A stretch of 64,000 nucleotides of DNA from an uncultured Gemmatimonadaceae bacterium (GTDB lineage Bacteria > Gemmatimonadota > Gemmatimonadetes > Gemmatimonadales > Gemmatimonadaceae), in the NCBI GenBank assembly GCA_963829055.1, contig CAWHHI010000019.1:88718-152717 (forward strand). Direction: 5' to 3'. Every line of letters starts with the position of its first letter. The stretch's first letter is position 1. Below the pieces are notes generated by a model, which did not search any database, was not told the DNA's origin, and worked only from the letters and a program-made list of their open reading frames with translations. Positions 1 to 63,470 of the stretch are shown here, one piece after another. A program made the position numbers and the translations under genes.

Positions 1-1853
1 TCGGTTCCACCTCTTCGCGGGGTCTTCACCACCTCGTGTACGAGGTCGTGGACAACTCCATCGATGAGGCGCTCGCGGGCTACGCCGATCGTGTCGACGT
101 GCACATTCACGCCGACAACTCGATCACCGTAGAGGACAACGGTCGAGGTATTCCAGTCGACATTCACCCGACCGAAAAGATTCCGGGTGTCGAGCTCGCG
201 ATGACGGTGCTTCACGCCGGCGGCAAGTTCGACAAGGACAGCTACAAGGTGTCCGGTGGACTCCACGGCGTCGGTGTGTCCGTCGTGAACGCGCTCTCGG
301 AAAAGCTCAAGGTGTGGGTGAAGCGCGATTCCAAGGAGTACTACATGGATTTCGCGCGCGGCGGGACGACCACGAAGCTCAAGGTGCTCGGCAAGGCCGG
401 CGCGCGTGAGCGTGGAACGAAGGTGTGGTTCAAGCCTGACGACACGATCTTCACCGAGCTCGAATACGACTACACGACGCTCGCGTCTCGCCTGCGAGAG
501 CTTTCGTTCCTGAACAAGGGCGTCAGCATCAACCTGACGGACGAGCGCGAGGGGAAGGAGAAGAAAGAGACCTTCCACGCGAAGGGCGGCCTCAAGGAGA
601 TGGTGCAGTTCCTCAACTCGAGCCGGAAGCCGCTGCACTCCGAGGTCATGTACGTCGAGATGGAGCGCGACGGCATCGGCATCGAGCTCGCGCTCCAGTA
701 CAACGACGGCTACAACGAGAACGTGTTCTCGTTCGTGAACAACATCAACACGCACGAAGGCGGCACGCACCTAACGGGACTCAAGGCCGCGCTGACGCGG
801 ACGATCAACGCCTACGCCGAGAAGGGGAATTTCCTCAACAAGGCGGACAAGAAGGCGGAGTTCAAGCTTTCCGGGGACGACGTGCGTGAGGGTCTGACTG
901 GCGTGCTGTCAGTCAAGGTCCGCGAGCCGCAGTTCGAAGGTCAGACGAAGACCAAGCTCGGAAACTCCGAGGTCGAAGGCGCGGTCAAGACGGTCGTGAA
1001 CGAGTGGCTCGCGGCGTACCTCGATGAGCACCCGCGCACCGCGAACATCGTGGTGGACAAGGCCGTTTCCGCCGCTCGAGCGCGTGAGGCAGCGCGCAAG
1101 GCGCGCGACCTGACGCGCAAGAAGTCCGCGCTCGACATTGGCAACCTGCCAGGCAAGCTCGCCGATTGTTCCCTGAGCGACCCGGCGTTGACGGAGCTGT
1201 ATCTCGTCGAAGGTGACTCGGCAGGCGGATCTGCCAAGCAGGGACGCGCTCGTGAATTTCAGGCGATCCTGCCGCTCCGCGGGAAGATCATCAACGTCGA
1301 GAAGGCACGCATCGACAAGGTGCTGTCGAACGAGGAAATCCGGACGATCATCACCGCGATCGGTACCGGTATCAAGGAAGACTTCTCGATCGACAACGCC
1401 CGCTATCACAAGATCATCATCATGACGGACGCGGACGTCGACGGCGCGCACATCCGTACGCTGCTGCTGACGTTCTTCTTCCGGCAGATGCCCGAGCTCA
1501 TCGAAGCGGGCTACATGTACATCGCGCAGCCGCCGCTCTTCCGGGTCGCGAAGGGCAAGGAGGAGTACTACGCGTACGACATGAAGGAGCGCGACGACAT
1601 CGCCGCTCGACTCGGGAATGGCGACGGTCGTGGCTCGTTGAACATCCAGCGCTACAAGGGGCTCGGAGAGATGAATCCGGACCAGCTCTGGAAGACCACC
1701 ATGGATCCGGAAACCCGCACGATCCTGCGCGTGGGCATGGAAGACGCCGTGATGGCCGATCAGATCTTCCAGACGCTCATGGGCGATGAAGTCGAGCCGC
1801 GTCGCGCCTTCATCGAGAAGAACGCGAAGTTCGTGAGCAATCTCGACATCTGA
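1..1853 (+). CDS. gyrB: DNA gyrase subunit B (5' end lies outside the window)
   Basis: [43 protein letters not shown] and [16 protein letters not shown]; the frame is open from base 3. Confidence 0.98.
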
Positions 1854-1872
1854 CGCGTCGATTCAGGCACAA

Positions 1873-1917
1873 GAACAAACCCCTCGCGAGCCGCTGCGGC
1901 TCGCGAGGGGTTTGTTC
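1873..1917. terminator. bidirectional intrinsic terminator between convergent genes
   Basis: perfect inverted repeat gaacaaacccctcgcgagccgc-t-gcggctcgcgaggggtttgttc. Confidence 0.85.
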
Positions 1918-1932
1918 GTAAGGCCGCTGAAC

Positions 1933-60940: not shown

Positions 60941-60981
60941 GTGCGAACGGCTAGCTTTCGCCGACCCTCGGAGCAAACCAC

Positions 60982-61740
60982 GTGCTGTATATCTGCATTC
61001 CCGCGTACAACGAAGCGCCGACGATCGGCGTGCTGCTGTGGCGTATTCGCAAAGTCCTGAAGGACTTCTCTCGCGAGTACGAGATCGTCGTATTCAACGA
61101 CGGCAGCACCGACGCCACCGCCGAGACGCTTCAACCGTATGGCGACGTGCTGCCGCTCAGCGTCCTGGGTGGCGACCGTCACGTCGGCTACGCGGGCGCG
61201 CTGGACGCGCTTTGCAGGTCCGTCGTGACGAAAACGCGGTATCCGCGACGCGACGCGATGTTGCTCATGCAGGGCGACTTCACCGACCAGCCGGAGCACA
61301 TCCCCGAGCTCGTGAAGCGCTTCGAGGGCGGCGCCGATCTTGTCGTCGGCGAGCGAACGACGATACCATCGGCGCCCGTGCCGGTTCGCCGCCTGCGCTG
61401 GGTCGCACCTTGGCTGCTCCGGCCCTTCGTATCGGTTCCCGGCGTCGCGGACCCGTTCGGGTCGTTCCGTCTCATTCGCATCTCCGTCATTCGCGACCTC
61501 GTCAAGCAGAACGGCGACTCACCAATCGTCTCGGGTGAGGGCTGGGCCGCGAACGTGGATCTACTGTCCCGCGCCATTCCCTTCGCGCGCCGGGTGGAGA
61601 CGGTCTCGCTCGAGCAACGCTTCGACATTCGGCCGCGCGAGAGCCGCATCCGGCCATTCGCGGACGCGATGAACCTTTATCGGTTTGCGTGGGCGACCCG
61701 CGGTCGCCGCACTGCCCCGCCGACAACGGCAGCGACATGA
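60982..61740 (+). CDS. glycosyltransferase family 2 (DPM synthase-like)
   Basis: IPAYNEA, NDGSTD; DxD position reads QGD. Confidence 0.82.
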   Translation: MLYICIPAYNEAPTIGVLLWRIRKVLKDFSREYEIVVFNDGSTDATAETLQPYGDVLPLSVLGGDRHVGYAGALDALCRSVVTKTRYPRRDAMLLMQGDFTDQPEHIPELVKRFEGGADLVVGERTTIPSAPVPVRRLRWVAPWLLRPFVSVPGVADPFGSFRLIRISVIRDLVKQNGDSPIVSGEGWAANVDLLSRAIPFARRVETVSLEQRFDIRPRESRIRPFADAMNLYRFAWATRGRRTAPPTTAAT

Positions 61741-62504
61741 TGCCGGTCCTGGTCAGCGTGCTCGCACTCGCGACCGCGCTGACCACACTGATTCAACAAC
61801 GTGACCAACCATCGCCAGCTGTCCCCTTCGGCGTGGGCGAACGGTTCACGTACGACGTGAAGCTGGGACCGTTCAAGGCAGGGCGCGGAAGCATGGAAGT
61901 CACCGGACTCGATACGGTGCGCGGCCACGCGGTGTGGCGCGCGGTGTTCCGCGTGAAGGGCGGCGTCCTCGGCTACAAGGCAGACAACACGATGGAGAGC
62001 TGGATGGACACGCTCTCACTGTTCTCGCTGCGGTTCACGCAGGACTTCGAGCAGACGGGAACCGACCGCAAGAAGCACTACGACATTTATCCGGAGCGCT
62101 CCGTCTACCAGGAGCCTAACAAGCCGGAGCAGCCGTCCGTCCCCGACCCGCTCGACGACGCGTCGTTCATCTATTTCATTCGCACCGTGCCGCTCGAGAT
62201 CGGTCGCACGTACTCGTATGACCGATACTTCCGACCCGACAAGAATCCGGTGCGCATCAAGGTGCTGCGGCGCGAGACAGTGAAGGTGCCGGCCGGTACG
62301 TATCAGACCATCGTCGTTCAGCCGATCATCAAGTCGAAGGGCATCTTCTCGGAGAATAGCAAAGCCGAGATCTGGTTCTCCGAGGACGCGAACCGCATCA
62401 TGGTACAGCTCAAGGCCGACCTTCCGGTGGGGTCGCTCAATCTGTACCTAACGTCGGCACGACCACCCACGCTCTCGATCCCGACTCCCGTATCGCCTCC
62501 GTGA
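61737..62504 (+). CDS. DUF3108-like secreted protein
   Basis: PFGVGERFTY, ETVKVPAGTY, IWFSED. Confidence 0.75.
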   Translation: MMPVLVSVLALATALTTLIQQRDQPSPAVPFGVGERFTYDVKLGPFKAGRGSMEVTGLDTVRGHAVWRAVFRVKGGVLGYKADNTMESWMDTLSLFSLRFTQDFEQTGTDRKKHYDIYPERSVYQEPNKPEQPSVPDPLDDASFIYFIRTVPLEIGRTYSYDRYFRPDKNPVRIKVLRRETVKVPAGTYQTIVVQPIIKSKGIFSENSKAEIWFSEDANRIMVQLKADLPVGSLNLYLTSARPPTLSIPTPVSPP

Positions 62505-63470
62505 CCAACCGCGAAGCGGACCTCGCCGCCGTGCGCACTGTGCCCATCGCGCGACGGCCCAACAAGGTGCGCGCCGAGGAGTTCGCGTCACCTCCGTCTG
62601 CTGGGGATCGGTCGTTCGCGGCATTTCTCGCGTCGCTTCCCGATGTCCTCGTCGCGCGTGACTTCCTTCGCGTGATCGACGCGGTCGCGGAGGCGAAGCG
62701 ACAGCAGCGCGGCGTGATCGTCATGCTCGGCGGTCACATCGTCAAAACGGGGTTCGCGCCACTGTTGATCGACCTCATGCGACGCGGCGTGATCACGCAT
62801 CTCGCCATGAACGGATCGGCGGCCATTCACGACTACGAGGTCGCCCGGTTCGGCGGAACGTCAGAGGACGTTGCTGCCGGCCTGCGCGATGGCACGTTCG
62901 GGATGGCGGAGGAAACCGGCAAAGGGCTGAACGAAGCGTTCGTCGCCGGCATGCGGGACGGTCGCGGGATGGGCGAGTCGGTCGCGCTGGCGCTGGAAGC
63001 GACACCGAATCTCGCGCACCCGGAGCTCTCCGGTCGTACTCGCCGCGCACCGGCTGTCGATCCCCGTGACGGTACACGCCGCGTTAGGCGCCGAGATCAT
63101 CCACCAGCATCCGGCGGCGAACGGTGCCGCGATCGGCGACACGAGCCACCGGGATTTCCGTCGATTGGCGGGGTCGCTTCCCGTGATTCACGATGGCGGG
63201 GTGGTACTGAATCTCGGCAGCGCAGTGATCATGCCCGAGGTGTTTCTCAAGGCGCTGACGATCGCGCGCAATCTCGGCAACGGGCGCCCGACGCACTTCA
63301 CCACGTGTGATCTCGACATGCAGCGGCATTACCGCCCTCGCGTGAACGTCGTGCAACGCCCGACGCTCGACGGCGGTGCCGGCTACGAGATCACGGGACA
63401 CCACGAGATCATGGTCCCGTTGCTCGTCTGGGGCATCATCGACCGCCTGGACCGTGGCGTCGTTAGGTAG
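62501..63470 (+). CDS. deoxyhypusine-synthase-like fold protein (frameshift near 63030)
   Basis: GGHIVKTG, AMNGSAAIHD, TVH, GSAVIMPEVFLKAL, GHHEIM. Confidence 0.65.

What the first reader, a model, noticed from the sequence alone, without database searches (positions are those of the whole stretch)
770..63467. Pervasive over-represented motif CCTAACG/CGTTAGG written into genes through rare codons
Seen: a manual scan found about 45 exact 7-mers. There are 25 CCTAACG (e.g. 770, 1932, 3674, 5758, 6622, 6880, 11057, 12091, 13014, 16419, 18475) and 20 CGTTAGG (e.g. 19711, 21374, 29726, 30137, 45207, 49111, 52726, 53144, 63082), plus about 6 hits matching only the 6-mer. Base composition alone (assuming about 67% GC) predicts about 7, and TA-containing words are otherwise scarce here. 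The motif sits inside core genes (gyrB, ligA, pdp, sbcC, gcvP, ABC genes) as unfavoured CTA/TTA/AGG/CCT codons. It also supplies several stop codons (1933, 19714, 36750, 44038). All 12 copies in the first 19.3 kb face the same way. Inference: a genome-wide cis signal analogous to HIP1, DNA-uptake sequences, Chi or KOPS, a nucleoid-protein site, or a DNA-modification site. I know of no description of it for this lineage.
Basis: partly seen in the sequence, partly recalled or inferred. Interest (0 to 1): 0.85.

Follow-up and report, generated by a model that had tools for sequence, protein, structure and literature searches.

The report
Genome-wide DNA watermark shared with phages
Many Gemmatimonadaceae bacteria, and some phages, have written one short DNA word into their genes about once per thousand bases, evenly spaced like known DNA-uptake tags; what reads it is unknown.

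Summary
Real and genome-wide. The window holds 45 CCTAACG (2.6 expected); the 7.8 Mb Gemmatimonadaceae genome holds 6391, of which 5004 are GCCTAACG. In genes it is 12-fold above synonymous-codon shuffles, accounts for 74% of TTA codons, and stays at the same positions in relatives whose synonymous sites have largely diverged. Sites avoid each other within about 300-400 bp in every orientation, as a neisserial uptake sequence did in a control genome. It is not polarised by replichore, so not KOPS or classic Chi; the 12-site run is chance. It is abundant in 58 of 200 family genomes, patchy on the tree, with dialects around GCCTAAC. That core is identical to the commonest integron attC end in the phylum. 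Five tailed-phage records carry it at host density, mostly in structural genes. No reader was found: competence genes, integrase and an order-wide Type IIG-like methyltransferase-SNF2 helicase pair occur in carriers and non-carriers alike. Best reading: a direction-blind self-watermark working like a DNA uptake sequence (0.40); main rival: an intracellular licence mark that phages forge (0.28). No description found in five literature searches.

The parts
770..63467 (.). 45 dispersed copies of CCTAACG (32 as GCCTAACG), 25 on + and 20 on -; part of 6391 copies in the genome
770..776 (+). site in gyrB, read CAC CTA ACG (His-Leu-Thr); a motif-poor relative has CAC CTC ACG
1932..1938 (+). site supplying the TAG stop of the M56/BlaR1-like gene on - (1933)
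6622..6886 (+). two sites in pdp, each GCG TTA GGC (Ala-Leu-Gly) on the coding strand
12091..13020 (+). two sites in the frameshifted ligA (AGC CTA ACG; CCT AAC GTG)
19711..19717 (-). site supplying the TAG stop at 19714
28740..30143 (.). three sites in sbcC/Rad50 (TLG, DLT, GLT)
36749..36755 (+). site supplying the TAG stop at 36750
44036..45723 (.). gcvP: TAA stop in a site (44036) and three internal sites (TLG, PNA, PNG); all three internal sites are kept in G001 and G005; the PNA site also in G014 and G058 but not in motif-poor G106
52873..53150 (-). two sites inside the second ABC ATPase gene (ACG TTA GGC; CGC GTT AGG)

Best explanation
The word (G)CCTAAC(G) is a selected, direction-blind watermark on duplex DNA: one copy covers about 300-400 bp on either side, so a second copy nearby adds little (shown). 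Most likely it is read when DNA enters the cell: a sequence-preferring subunit of the type IV pilus/ComEA/ComEC machinery takes up fragments that carry a copy more readily, recombination then spreads alleles that gain a copy, and sites pile up through rare codons and tolerated amino-acid changes, as for neisserial and pasteurellacean uptake sequences (inferred). Lineages without the preference never gain or lose the word (inferred). Because the core equals the attC end, the same bias would also favour integron cassettes (speculative).
For: Density 0.64-0.82 per kb against 1.0 per kb for the uptake sequence in control genome G418. Non-palindromic, both strands, not polarised. Sites kept at aligned positions with unchanged amino acids in 10 of 13 (G001) and 16 of 19 (G005) cases against 0.32-0.34 for other 7-mers; 39 of 59 G014-specific sites go with amino-acid differences. 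Use of codon-permissive positions rises from 10 of 863 within 25 bp of another site to about 20% at 400-1200 bp, in each of the four frames, flat after permutation. Pair density 0.28, 0.50, 0.78, 0.91 per 100-bp bin, alike for same and opposite orientations. The control uptake sequence shows depletion over a similar range (0.45, 0.69, 0.66, 0.55, 0.83 after merging terminator pairs; 400 kb). Atypical genes carry fewer sites (O/E 0.67 at GC3 below 0.75). Dialects by lineage. Uptake machinery is present: pilMNOQ and pilins, ComEC 76 of 80, ComEA-type HhH 80 of 80, DprA 5 of 5, an orphan FimT-like pilin 77 of 80, ending LGR.R-like in the 30 aligned (GRxR as DNA-binding tail: PMC8897410).
Against: No receptor found: ComP_DUS 0 of 5, with no control ringing; no pilin unique to four carriers versus G106; no clear FimT residue separating carriers; competence genes are as common in non-carriers. 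No terminator pairs, whereas the control has 91 inverted pairs under 50 bp. Core of only 7-8 bases without flanking signal. Conserved genes are not enriched (O/E 1.04 and 0.98). Five phage records carry it at host density with the same short-range gap where measured, which uptake-driven spread explains only if they are long-resident prophages; no integrase was seen in the parts scanned. The control's spacing may partly reflect its intergenic sites. Natural transformation is not documented for this phylum in the listing seen.
Confidence: 0.4

Rival explanations
1. Intracellular licence mark: a host machine binds or methylates the site and DNA within a few hundred bases of a site is spared or processed as self; phages forge the mark. 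The candidate machine is the order-wide Type IIG/DrmMI-like adenine methyltransferase with its adjacent SNF2 helicase, acting with a reader present only in carrier lineages.
For: Phage records with portal, capsid, tail or replication genes carry 37 sites in 45.6 kb, 87 in 82.1 kb and 13-23 CCTAAC in 10-16 kb, through the same rare codons. The methyltransferase (Pfam Eco57I, MmeI_Mtase) is in 79 of 80 panel genomes and in 49 of 53 and 5 of 6 genomes of the order's other two families; outside the order strong matches were seen in only 3 of 20 genomes, and no genome outside the order was motif-rich. A helicase gene follows it in 24 of 30 loci. CCTAAC has adenine at position 5, as in the DrmMI site ACACAG and the BREX site TAGGAG (10.1101/2021.12.28.474362).
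Against: The enzyme, its NPPW motif and its C-terminal motifs are the same in carriers and non-carriers, and in 767 kb of non-carrier DNA CCTAAC is neither enriched nor avoided (20 versus 20.4), with no substitute word in four non-carriers. A carrier of another family (G030) has a different motif in the putative recognition region yet the same word. Its target is unknown. Known systems of this type make sites a liability for phages (established knowledge). Four portal-bearing contigs from carrier bins held only 3 CCTAAC in 28 kb.
Confidence: 0.28
2. Binding site of an abundant chromosome-organising or DNA-processing protein whose footprint or spreading covers a few hundred bases; resident phage DNA benefits too.
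For: Orientation-independent reach of 300-400 bp, near-uniform use across gene classes and contigs, presence on the three large replicons of complete genome G049 and in phages.
Against: No long-range periodicity to 200 kb and no helical phasing. 129 of 200 close relatives do without it. No candidate protein identified; I did not profile nucleoid proteins.
Confidence: 0.14
3. Integron-integrase landing pads or footprints: the word is the attC/attI core spread through the genome.
For: GCCTAAC...CGTTAGGC closes the attC hairpins of motif-poor relatives and of this genome's own array; it fits the GTTRRRY core (PMC8876359). A few attC-like sites lie outside the array.
Against: Integrase is in 31 of 38 carriers and 29 of 36 non-carriers. 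Cores used by real attC sites (GTTAGAC, GTTAGCC) are not enriched genome-wide (24 and 58 copies, O/E about 1-2). Integrase needs only GWT for genomic insertion (10.1101/2022.09.11.507474). Sites sit in gyrB and ligA, where insertion would be harmful.
Confidence: 0.04
4. KOPS- or Chi-like polar signal for FtsK or AddAB/RecBCD.
For: Non-palindromic octamer; a slight 278:347 leading-to-lagging ratio on contig C16.
Against: On the same contig, around a dif-like site at the skew maximum, GGGAAGGG is 42:3. The slight bias matches the excess of antisense frames in genes. Opposite-facing sites are as redundant as same-facing ones, which a directional reader would not give.
Confidence: 0.03
5. Mutational bias, codon-pair bias or sequencing artefact.
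For: None specific.
Against: Neighbour-dependent occupancy, positional conservation, four unrelated frames plus stops and intergenic sites, inner one-off variants near expectation and not repelled, many independent assemblies.
Confidence: 0.02

Closest known systems
Neisseriaceae DUS and Pasteurellaceae USS
   Same: About one copy per kb, non-palindromic, both strands, conserved positions, effect on codons and peptides, scarcity in newly acquired DNA (PMC2397512, PMC2817400, PMC7811141; passages), short-range spacing gap.
   Different: Unrelated and shorter word, no terminator pairs, no ComP homologue found, not enriched in conserved genes, present at full density in several phages; uptake not tested.
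Cyanobacterial HIP1 (GCGATCGC)
   Same: Octamer at gene-level density under selection, patchy in its phylum, possibly methylation-linked and uptake-enhancing (PMC5861425 passages; PMC13756078 abstract and section 14).
   Different: HIP1 is palindromic, periodic and has known methylases; this word is asymmetric, showed no periodicity and has no assigned methylase.
Integron attC core GTTRRRY and its inverse
   Same: GTTAGGC/GCCTAAC is the commonest end of the attC sites seen in this phylum.
   Different: Genomic copies are single, avoid inverted pairing, lack hairpins and exclude other functional cores; integrase does not track them.
Campylobacter RAATTY/CtsM uptake tag
   Same: Precedent for a methylated short word that licenses transformation (PMC8627207, passage).
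   Different: Palindromic, degenerate; here methylation is untested.
DISARM class 1 DrmMI-DrmD and BREX PglX
   Same: Adenine methyltransferase beside an SNF2 helicase; asymmetric 6-mers with A at position 5.
   Different: Here the pair is an order-wide, mostly single-copy gene pair without a DrmB-type gene; those systems are not known to drive site accumulation.

Membership tests
DNA uptake sequence (DUS/USS) | Short word hugely over-represented, about 1 per kb, both strands | tested here: met
DNA uptake sequence (DUS/USS) | Sites more conserved than their surroundings | tested here: met
   10 of 13 and 16 of 19 versus 0.32-0.34
DNA uptake sequence (DUS/USS) | Competence machinery encoded | tested here: met
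   comEA and fimT are frameshifted in this error-prone assembly; also met in non-carriers
DNA uptake sequence (DUS/USS) | Scarce in recently acquired DNA and mobile elements | tested here: inconclusive
   Lower in atypical genes and in four portal contigs, but at host density in five phage records
DNA uptake sequence (DUS/USS) | Cognate receptor (ComP in Neisseria) | tested here: inconclusive
   PF16732 0 of 5 but no positive control rang; no carrier-specific pilin
DNA uptake sequence (DUS/USS) | Inverted pairs in terminators (neisserial DUS) | tested here: not met
   inverted pairs under 50 bp at 0.15 of expectation versus 91 in the control
DNA uptake sequence (DUS/USS) | Preferential uptake of fragments with the word | not testable with these tools
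   needs a bench assay
HIP1 | Palindrome | tested here: not met
   GCCTAACG versus CGTTAGGC (sequence)
HIP1 | Periodic distribution over tens of kb | tested here: not met
   pair correlation flat to 200 kb on contigs over 500 kb; cruder than the published test
HIP1 | Cognate methyltransferase | tested here: inconclusive
   PF01555, PF02086, PF00145 not shared by carriers; one Eco57I-type enzyme shared by carriers and non-carriers
KOPS / Chi | Polarised by replichore (recalled criterion) | tested here: not met
   278:347 versus 42:3 for GGGAAGGG
KOPS / Chi | Orientation-dependent action | tested here: not met
   spacing gap equal for all orientations; indirect
Integron attC site | GTTRRRY core | tested here: met
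Integron attC site | Paired ends 50-150 bp apart forming a hairpin, in arrays | tested here: not met
   only a few dozen of 6391 sites, mostly the C20 array
DISARM class 1 | drmMI beside SNF2-like drmD | tested here: met
   resemblance by PADLOC and Pfam
DISARM class 1 | Core drmA, drmB (PF09369), drmC | tested here: not met
   PF09369 0 of 5, controls 8 of 14; drmA and drmC not searched
Methylation target of the order-wide methyltransferase | m6A in GCCTAAC | not testable with these tools
   only contigs were served

The most novel reading that the evidence does not exclude
Gemmatimonadaceae repeatedly turned the universal end of integron cassettes into a self-watermark: a host machine (uptake pilus or the domesticated methyltransferase-helicase pair) admits or spares DNA that carries GTTAGGC within a few hundred bases, so the cell welcomes its own DNA and cassettes from any soil neighbour, and phages forge the mark throughout their genomes.
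Probability: 0.2. Interest if true: 0.93.

Novelty: new variant of a known kind. Interest (0 to 1): 0.82.

Why it matters
Words at this density that reshape codons and proteins are known from few groups (Neisseriaceae, Pasteurellaceae, cyanobacteria). If it is an uptake tag it gives a way to transform a barely tractable phylum; if it is an intracellular licence it is an inverted self/non-self logic in which phages gain rather than lose sites. It also works as a marker for binning, chimeric contigs and phage host prediction.

Tried and rejected
Extended consensus: no information beyond the 8-mer. Helical phasing and long-range period: none. One-way run in the window: chance. dif arms do not contain the word. 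Shared methyltransferase among PF01555, PF02384, PF02086, PF00145 in 5 genomes each: none common to carriers; the weak PF02384 hits led to the order-wide enzyme. Presence-absence profiling on 80-genome panels (ComEC, HhH, methyltransferase, FimT, integrase): none tracks the motif. Residues separating carriers in 30 methyltransferases or 30 FimT: none convincing. Remnants in motif-poor G106: none evident. Substitute words in four non-carriers, 105-140 kb each: none. A named plasmid of this lineage: none among 33 hits. Portal relatives in viral contigs: 37 8-mers in 711 kb, hosts unknown, uninformative. The 21 kb contig of G049 repeats part of its chromosome start, so it is not counted as a plasmid. 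Large motif-free stretches at contig ends hold housekeeping genes and look chimeric, so they are not used as evidence on mobile DNA. Earlier findings of this scan: nothing. The methyltransferase of genus g98 was not examined, so whether its recognition region matches is open. No structure or complex was predicted, since neither gives DNA specificity.
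Full report
OBSERVATION. The window holds 45 CCTAACG, 25 on + and 20 on -, against 2.55 in dinucleotide shuffles. The window is G000:C19:88718-152717 of a 7.78 Mb, 20-contig assembly; its GyrB is 75-84% identical to that of the nine best records, all titled Gemmatimonadaceae or Gemmatimonas.

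THE WORD. The genome holds 6391 CCTAACG and 5004 GCCTAACG, on all 20 contigs. The 8-mer is 19-fold above an order-3 Markov model and about 200-fold above models trained with the word masked (masking inflates this). 7103 of 8933 CTAA in the genome sit in CCTAAC. Nothing outside the 8-mer carries information beyond codon periodicity. Variants that are both enriched and repelled by the main word define the active set: ACCTAACG, CCCTAACG, GCCTAACA, GCCTAACC, GCATAACG (0.35-0.45 of expected within 150 bp); GCCTGACG, GCCGAACG and GCCTCACG are not repelled (1.01-1.05).

IN GENES. Genes were called with my own hexamer model (7444 genes, 74% of the genome); the 5644 best were used. They hold 3749 sites against 285-323 in five synonymous shuffles; 1858 of 2513 TTA codons lie in the word or its GCATAAC-type variant; 1080 of 1767 Pro-Asn-G.. 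positions read CCT AAC; 239 of 730 TAA and 187 of 1477 TAG stops are in a site; 1797 sites are sense and 1952 antisense.

SELECTION. In 43-49 orthologues from congeners G001 and G005 (four-fold sites 49-50% identical), sites with unchanged amino acids are kept in 10 of 13 and 16 of 19 cases, other 7-mers in 32-34%; in G058 6 of 9, G014 5 of 12, motif-poor G106 0 of 7. Sites also turn over, often with an amino-acid difference (39 of 59 G014-specific sites).

SPACING. Pair density is 0.28, 0.50, 0.78, 0.91, 0.92, 1.01 of expectation in successive 100-bp bins; unrelated control words are near or above 1. Occupancy of codon-permissive positions rises from 1.2% within 25 bp of another site to about 20% beyond 400 bp, in each frame, and is flat (0.11-0.14) after permutation. 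The gap is the same for same-facing and opposite-facing pairs. A site-local mutation process would not see neighbours, and a directional reader would treat opposite sites as non-redundant; so the word is read on duplex DNA without direction, with a reach of 300-400 bp (inference). An unbiased scan for self-repelling words picks this word first in G014 and G058, but not in G049, where tandem repeats add close pairs. As a positive control, 400 kb of G418, which holds 1863 copies of the neisserial uptake 10-mer (word recalled), shows depletion to about 450 bp once terminator pairs are merged, and 91 inverted pairs under 50 bp that our word lacks.

NOT POLAR. A dif-like site lies at the skew maximum of C16; GGGAAGGG is 42:3 leading to lagging, GCCTAACG 278:347 (dif and KOPS consensus recalled).

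DISTRIBUTION. Of 200 family genomes, 58 (21 of 64 genera) have at least 140 CCTAACG per Mb, up to 1847; 13 have 40-140; 129 have under 40, median 12. All 6 congeners sampled carry thousands. In genus g48 five genomes have 930-1043 per Mb and G106 has 21. In a phylum sample of 200, high counts outside the family were limited to genus g98 of a sister family; G030 of a third family is also enriched. On a quick one-gene tree of 33 methyltransferases the carrier label needs 8 changes, at least 4 forced by well-supported branches; direction is not resolved. Dialects differ at the ends around GCCTAAC.

THE attC COINCIDENCE. In motif-poor relatives many copies lie in arrays beside integron integrases, as the two ends of attC hairpins, GCCTAAC...CGTTAGGC; this genome's own array uses GCCTAACG. 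The core fits GTTRRRY (PMC8876359, passage; the inverse-core label RYYYAAC is recalled). But integrase does not track the motif (31 of 38 carriers, 3 of 6 intermediate, 29 of 36 non-carriers), other working cores are not enriched, and integrase needs only GWT in genomes (10.1101/2022.09.11.507474, passages). The match may be chance among TA-containing words that are rare in GC-rich DNA, or an uptake bias that also nets cassettes; natural transformation can feed cassettes to chromosomal integrons (PMC12614218, abstract).

PHAGES. Two scans of viral contigs for pairs of sites (123 and 44 stretches; wide flanks for 80 and 44) gave five distinct phages with dispersed sites: IMGVR_UViG_3300025917_000032 (45.6 kb, 37 CCTAACG, 21/16), _3300036851_000411 (82.1 kb, 87, 40/47), and L553/L574, L563, L573 with 13-23 CCTAAC in 9-16 kb. 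Sites lie in portal, protease-capsid, tape-measure, tail and annealing-protein genes as TTA GGC, CTA ACG and CCT AAC; the two long records show 4 and 4 pairs against 11.2 expected in the first two 100-bp bins after merging tandem copies. Hosts are not known; the 82 kb record shares one protein 50% identical over 521 aa with G000. No integrase was seen in about 33 kb scanned of each long record. The scans select for site pairs, so they do not tell what share of this family's phages carry the word; four small portal contigs in carrier bins held only 3 CCTAAC in 28 kb. This result lowers the pure uptake reading and raises an intracellular one. A temperate Haemophilus phage with uptake sequences is recalled as precedent, from no call.

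Competence genes are family-wide and show no carrier-specific subunit or residue. Common methyltransferase families are not shared by carriers. One Eco57I/MmeI/DrmMI-like enzyme with an adjacent SNF2 helicase is present across the order, which is also the only order where the word was abundant; this is one clade-level coincidence. It is the same in non-carriers, where the word is at expectation and no other word replaces it. It is not DISARM by the DrmB test (definition from 10.1101/2021.12.28.474362, passages).

MECHANISM. Shown: selection on a 7-8 base duplex word with saturating, direction-blind benefit over 300-400 bp, in hosts and some phages. Inferred: a protein reader (about 0.9). The step at which it acts is open: DNA uptake 0.40, intracellular licence 0.28, chromosome-organising binder 0.14, integrase 0.04, polar signal 0.03, bias or artefact 0.02, the rest unlisted. 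It works like an uptake sequence in genome statistics; membership is unproven, and the terminator feature of neisserial DUS is not met.

LITERATURE. Searches for the words themselves (one unrelated paper; none on this subject in the 30 listed of 358), for Gemmatimonadota with over-represented motifs, competence (20 listed of 1058) and methylomes (25 listed of 5189) found no description. The library lacks most subscription papers, no methylome database was at hand, and no supplements were read; methylation-motif tables in supplements could already list this word. Seen as passages: PMC2817400, PMC2397512, PMC5861425, PMC7811141, PMC8897410, PMC8627207; abstract and section 14: PMC13756078; PMC4889954 returned no passage.

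VERDICT. A real, apparently undescribed member of the rare class of genome-wide watermarks, with two twists: identity with the attC core and presence in phage genes. New variant of a known kind; interest 0.82.

Noticed in passing
G000:C8:73551-79061 (outside the window); L236-L265, L286-L305: A Type IIG/MmeI/DrmMI-like adenine methyltransferase (about 1050 aa) followed by an SNF2 helicase is a mostly single-copy gene pair across the order (79 of 80 and 54 of 59 genomes), without a DrmB-type gene. Such enzymes are normally sporadic; a domesticated one is worth study whatever its link to the motif.
   Followed up: partly
L336, L347, L357, L360, L366, L385, L389: Viral contigs with attC-like cassette arrays (GCCTAAC...GGGTTAGGC every 300-600 bp); phage hallmark genes lie next to the array in L347 (terminase), L389 (tail fibre), L366 (tail spike) and L336 (annealing protein).
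   Followed up: partly
G000:C20:97000-209000; L088: Integron with a divergent integrase (just over the TIGR02249 cut-off) and about 20 attC-like sites over 110 kb; further attC-like sites on C9, C10 and C20:890 kb.
   Followed up: partly
G000:C8:164900-165330; L306-L335: Orphan FimT-like pilin with a near-invariant SRLGRVR tail in 77 of 80 family genomes, often beside a DEAD-box helicase and phosphofructokinase gene.
   Followed up: partly
G000:C6:5440-55038, C6:591808-623330, C11:1-44055: Motif-free contig ends with housekeeping genes and shifted GC; probably DNA of other organisms joined in assembly.
   Followed up: partly
G000:C16:560792: dif-like site exactly at the GC-skew maximum, with an Xer gene 19 kb away and polarised GGGAAGGG.
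   Followed up: yes
window 11585-13739: ligA is split by a frameshift; many genes of this assembly are (comEA, fimT, the methyltransferase), most likely long-read errors.
   Followed up: no
G000 genome-wide: A second family of words (GGAATGAC, TCATTCCGA, GGATGACA) occurs in close clusters, as in REP-like repeats.
   Followed up: no
L340/L341 (IMGVR_UViG_3300023212_000464): 14 GCCTAACG, all on one strand, within 4 kb of a 42% GC viral contig; possibly a repeated promoter or repeat, unrelated in pattern.
   Followed up: no
window 22487-23185: HigA-family antitoxin gene with a small neighbouring ORF.
   Followed up: no
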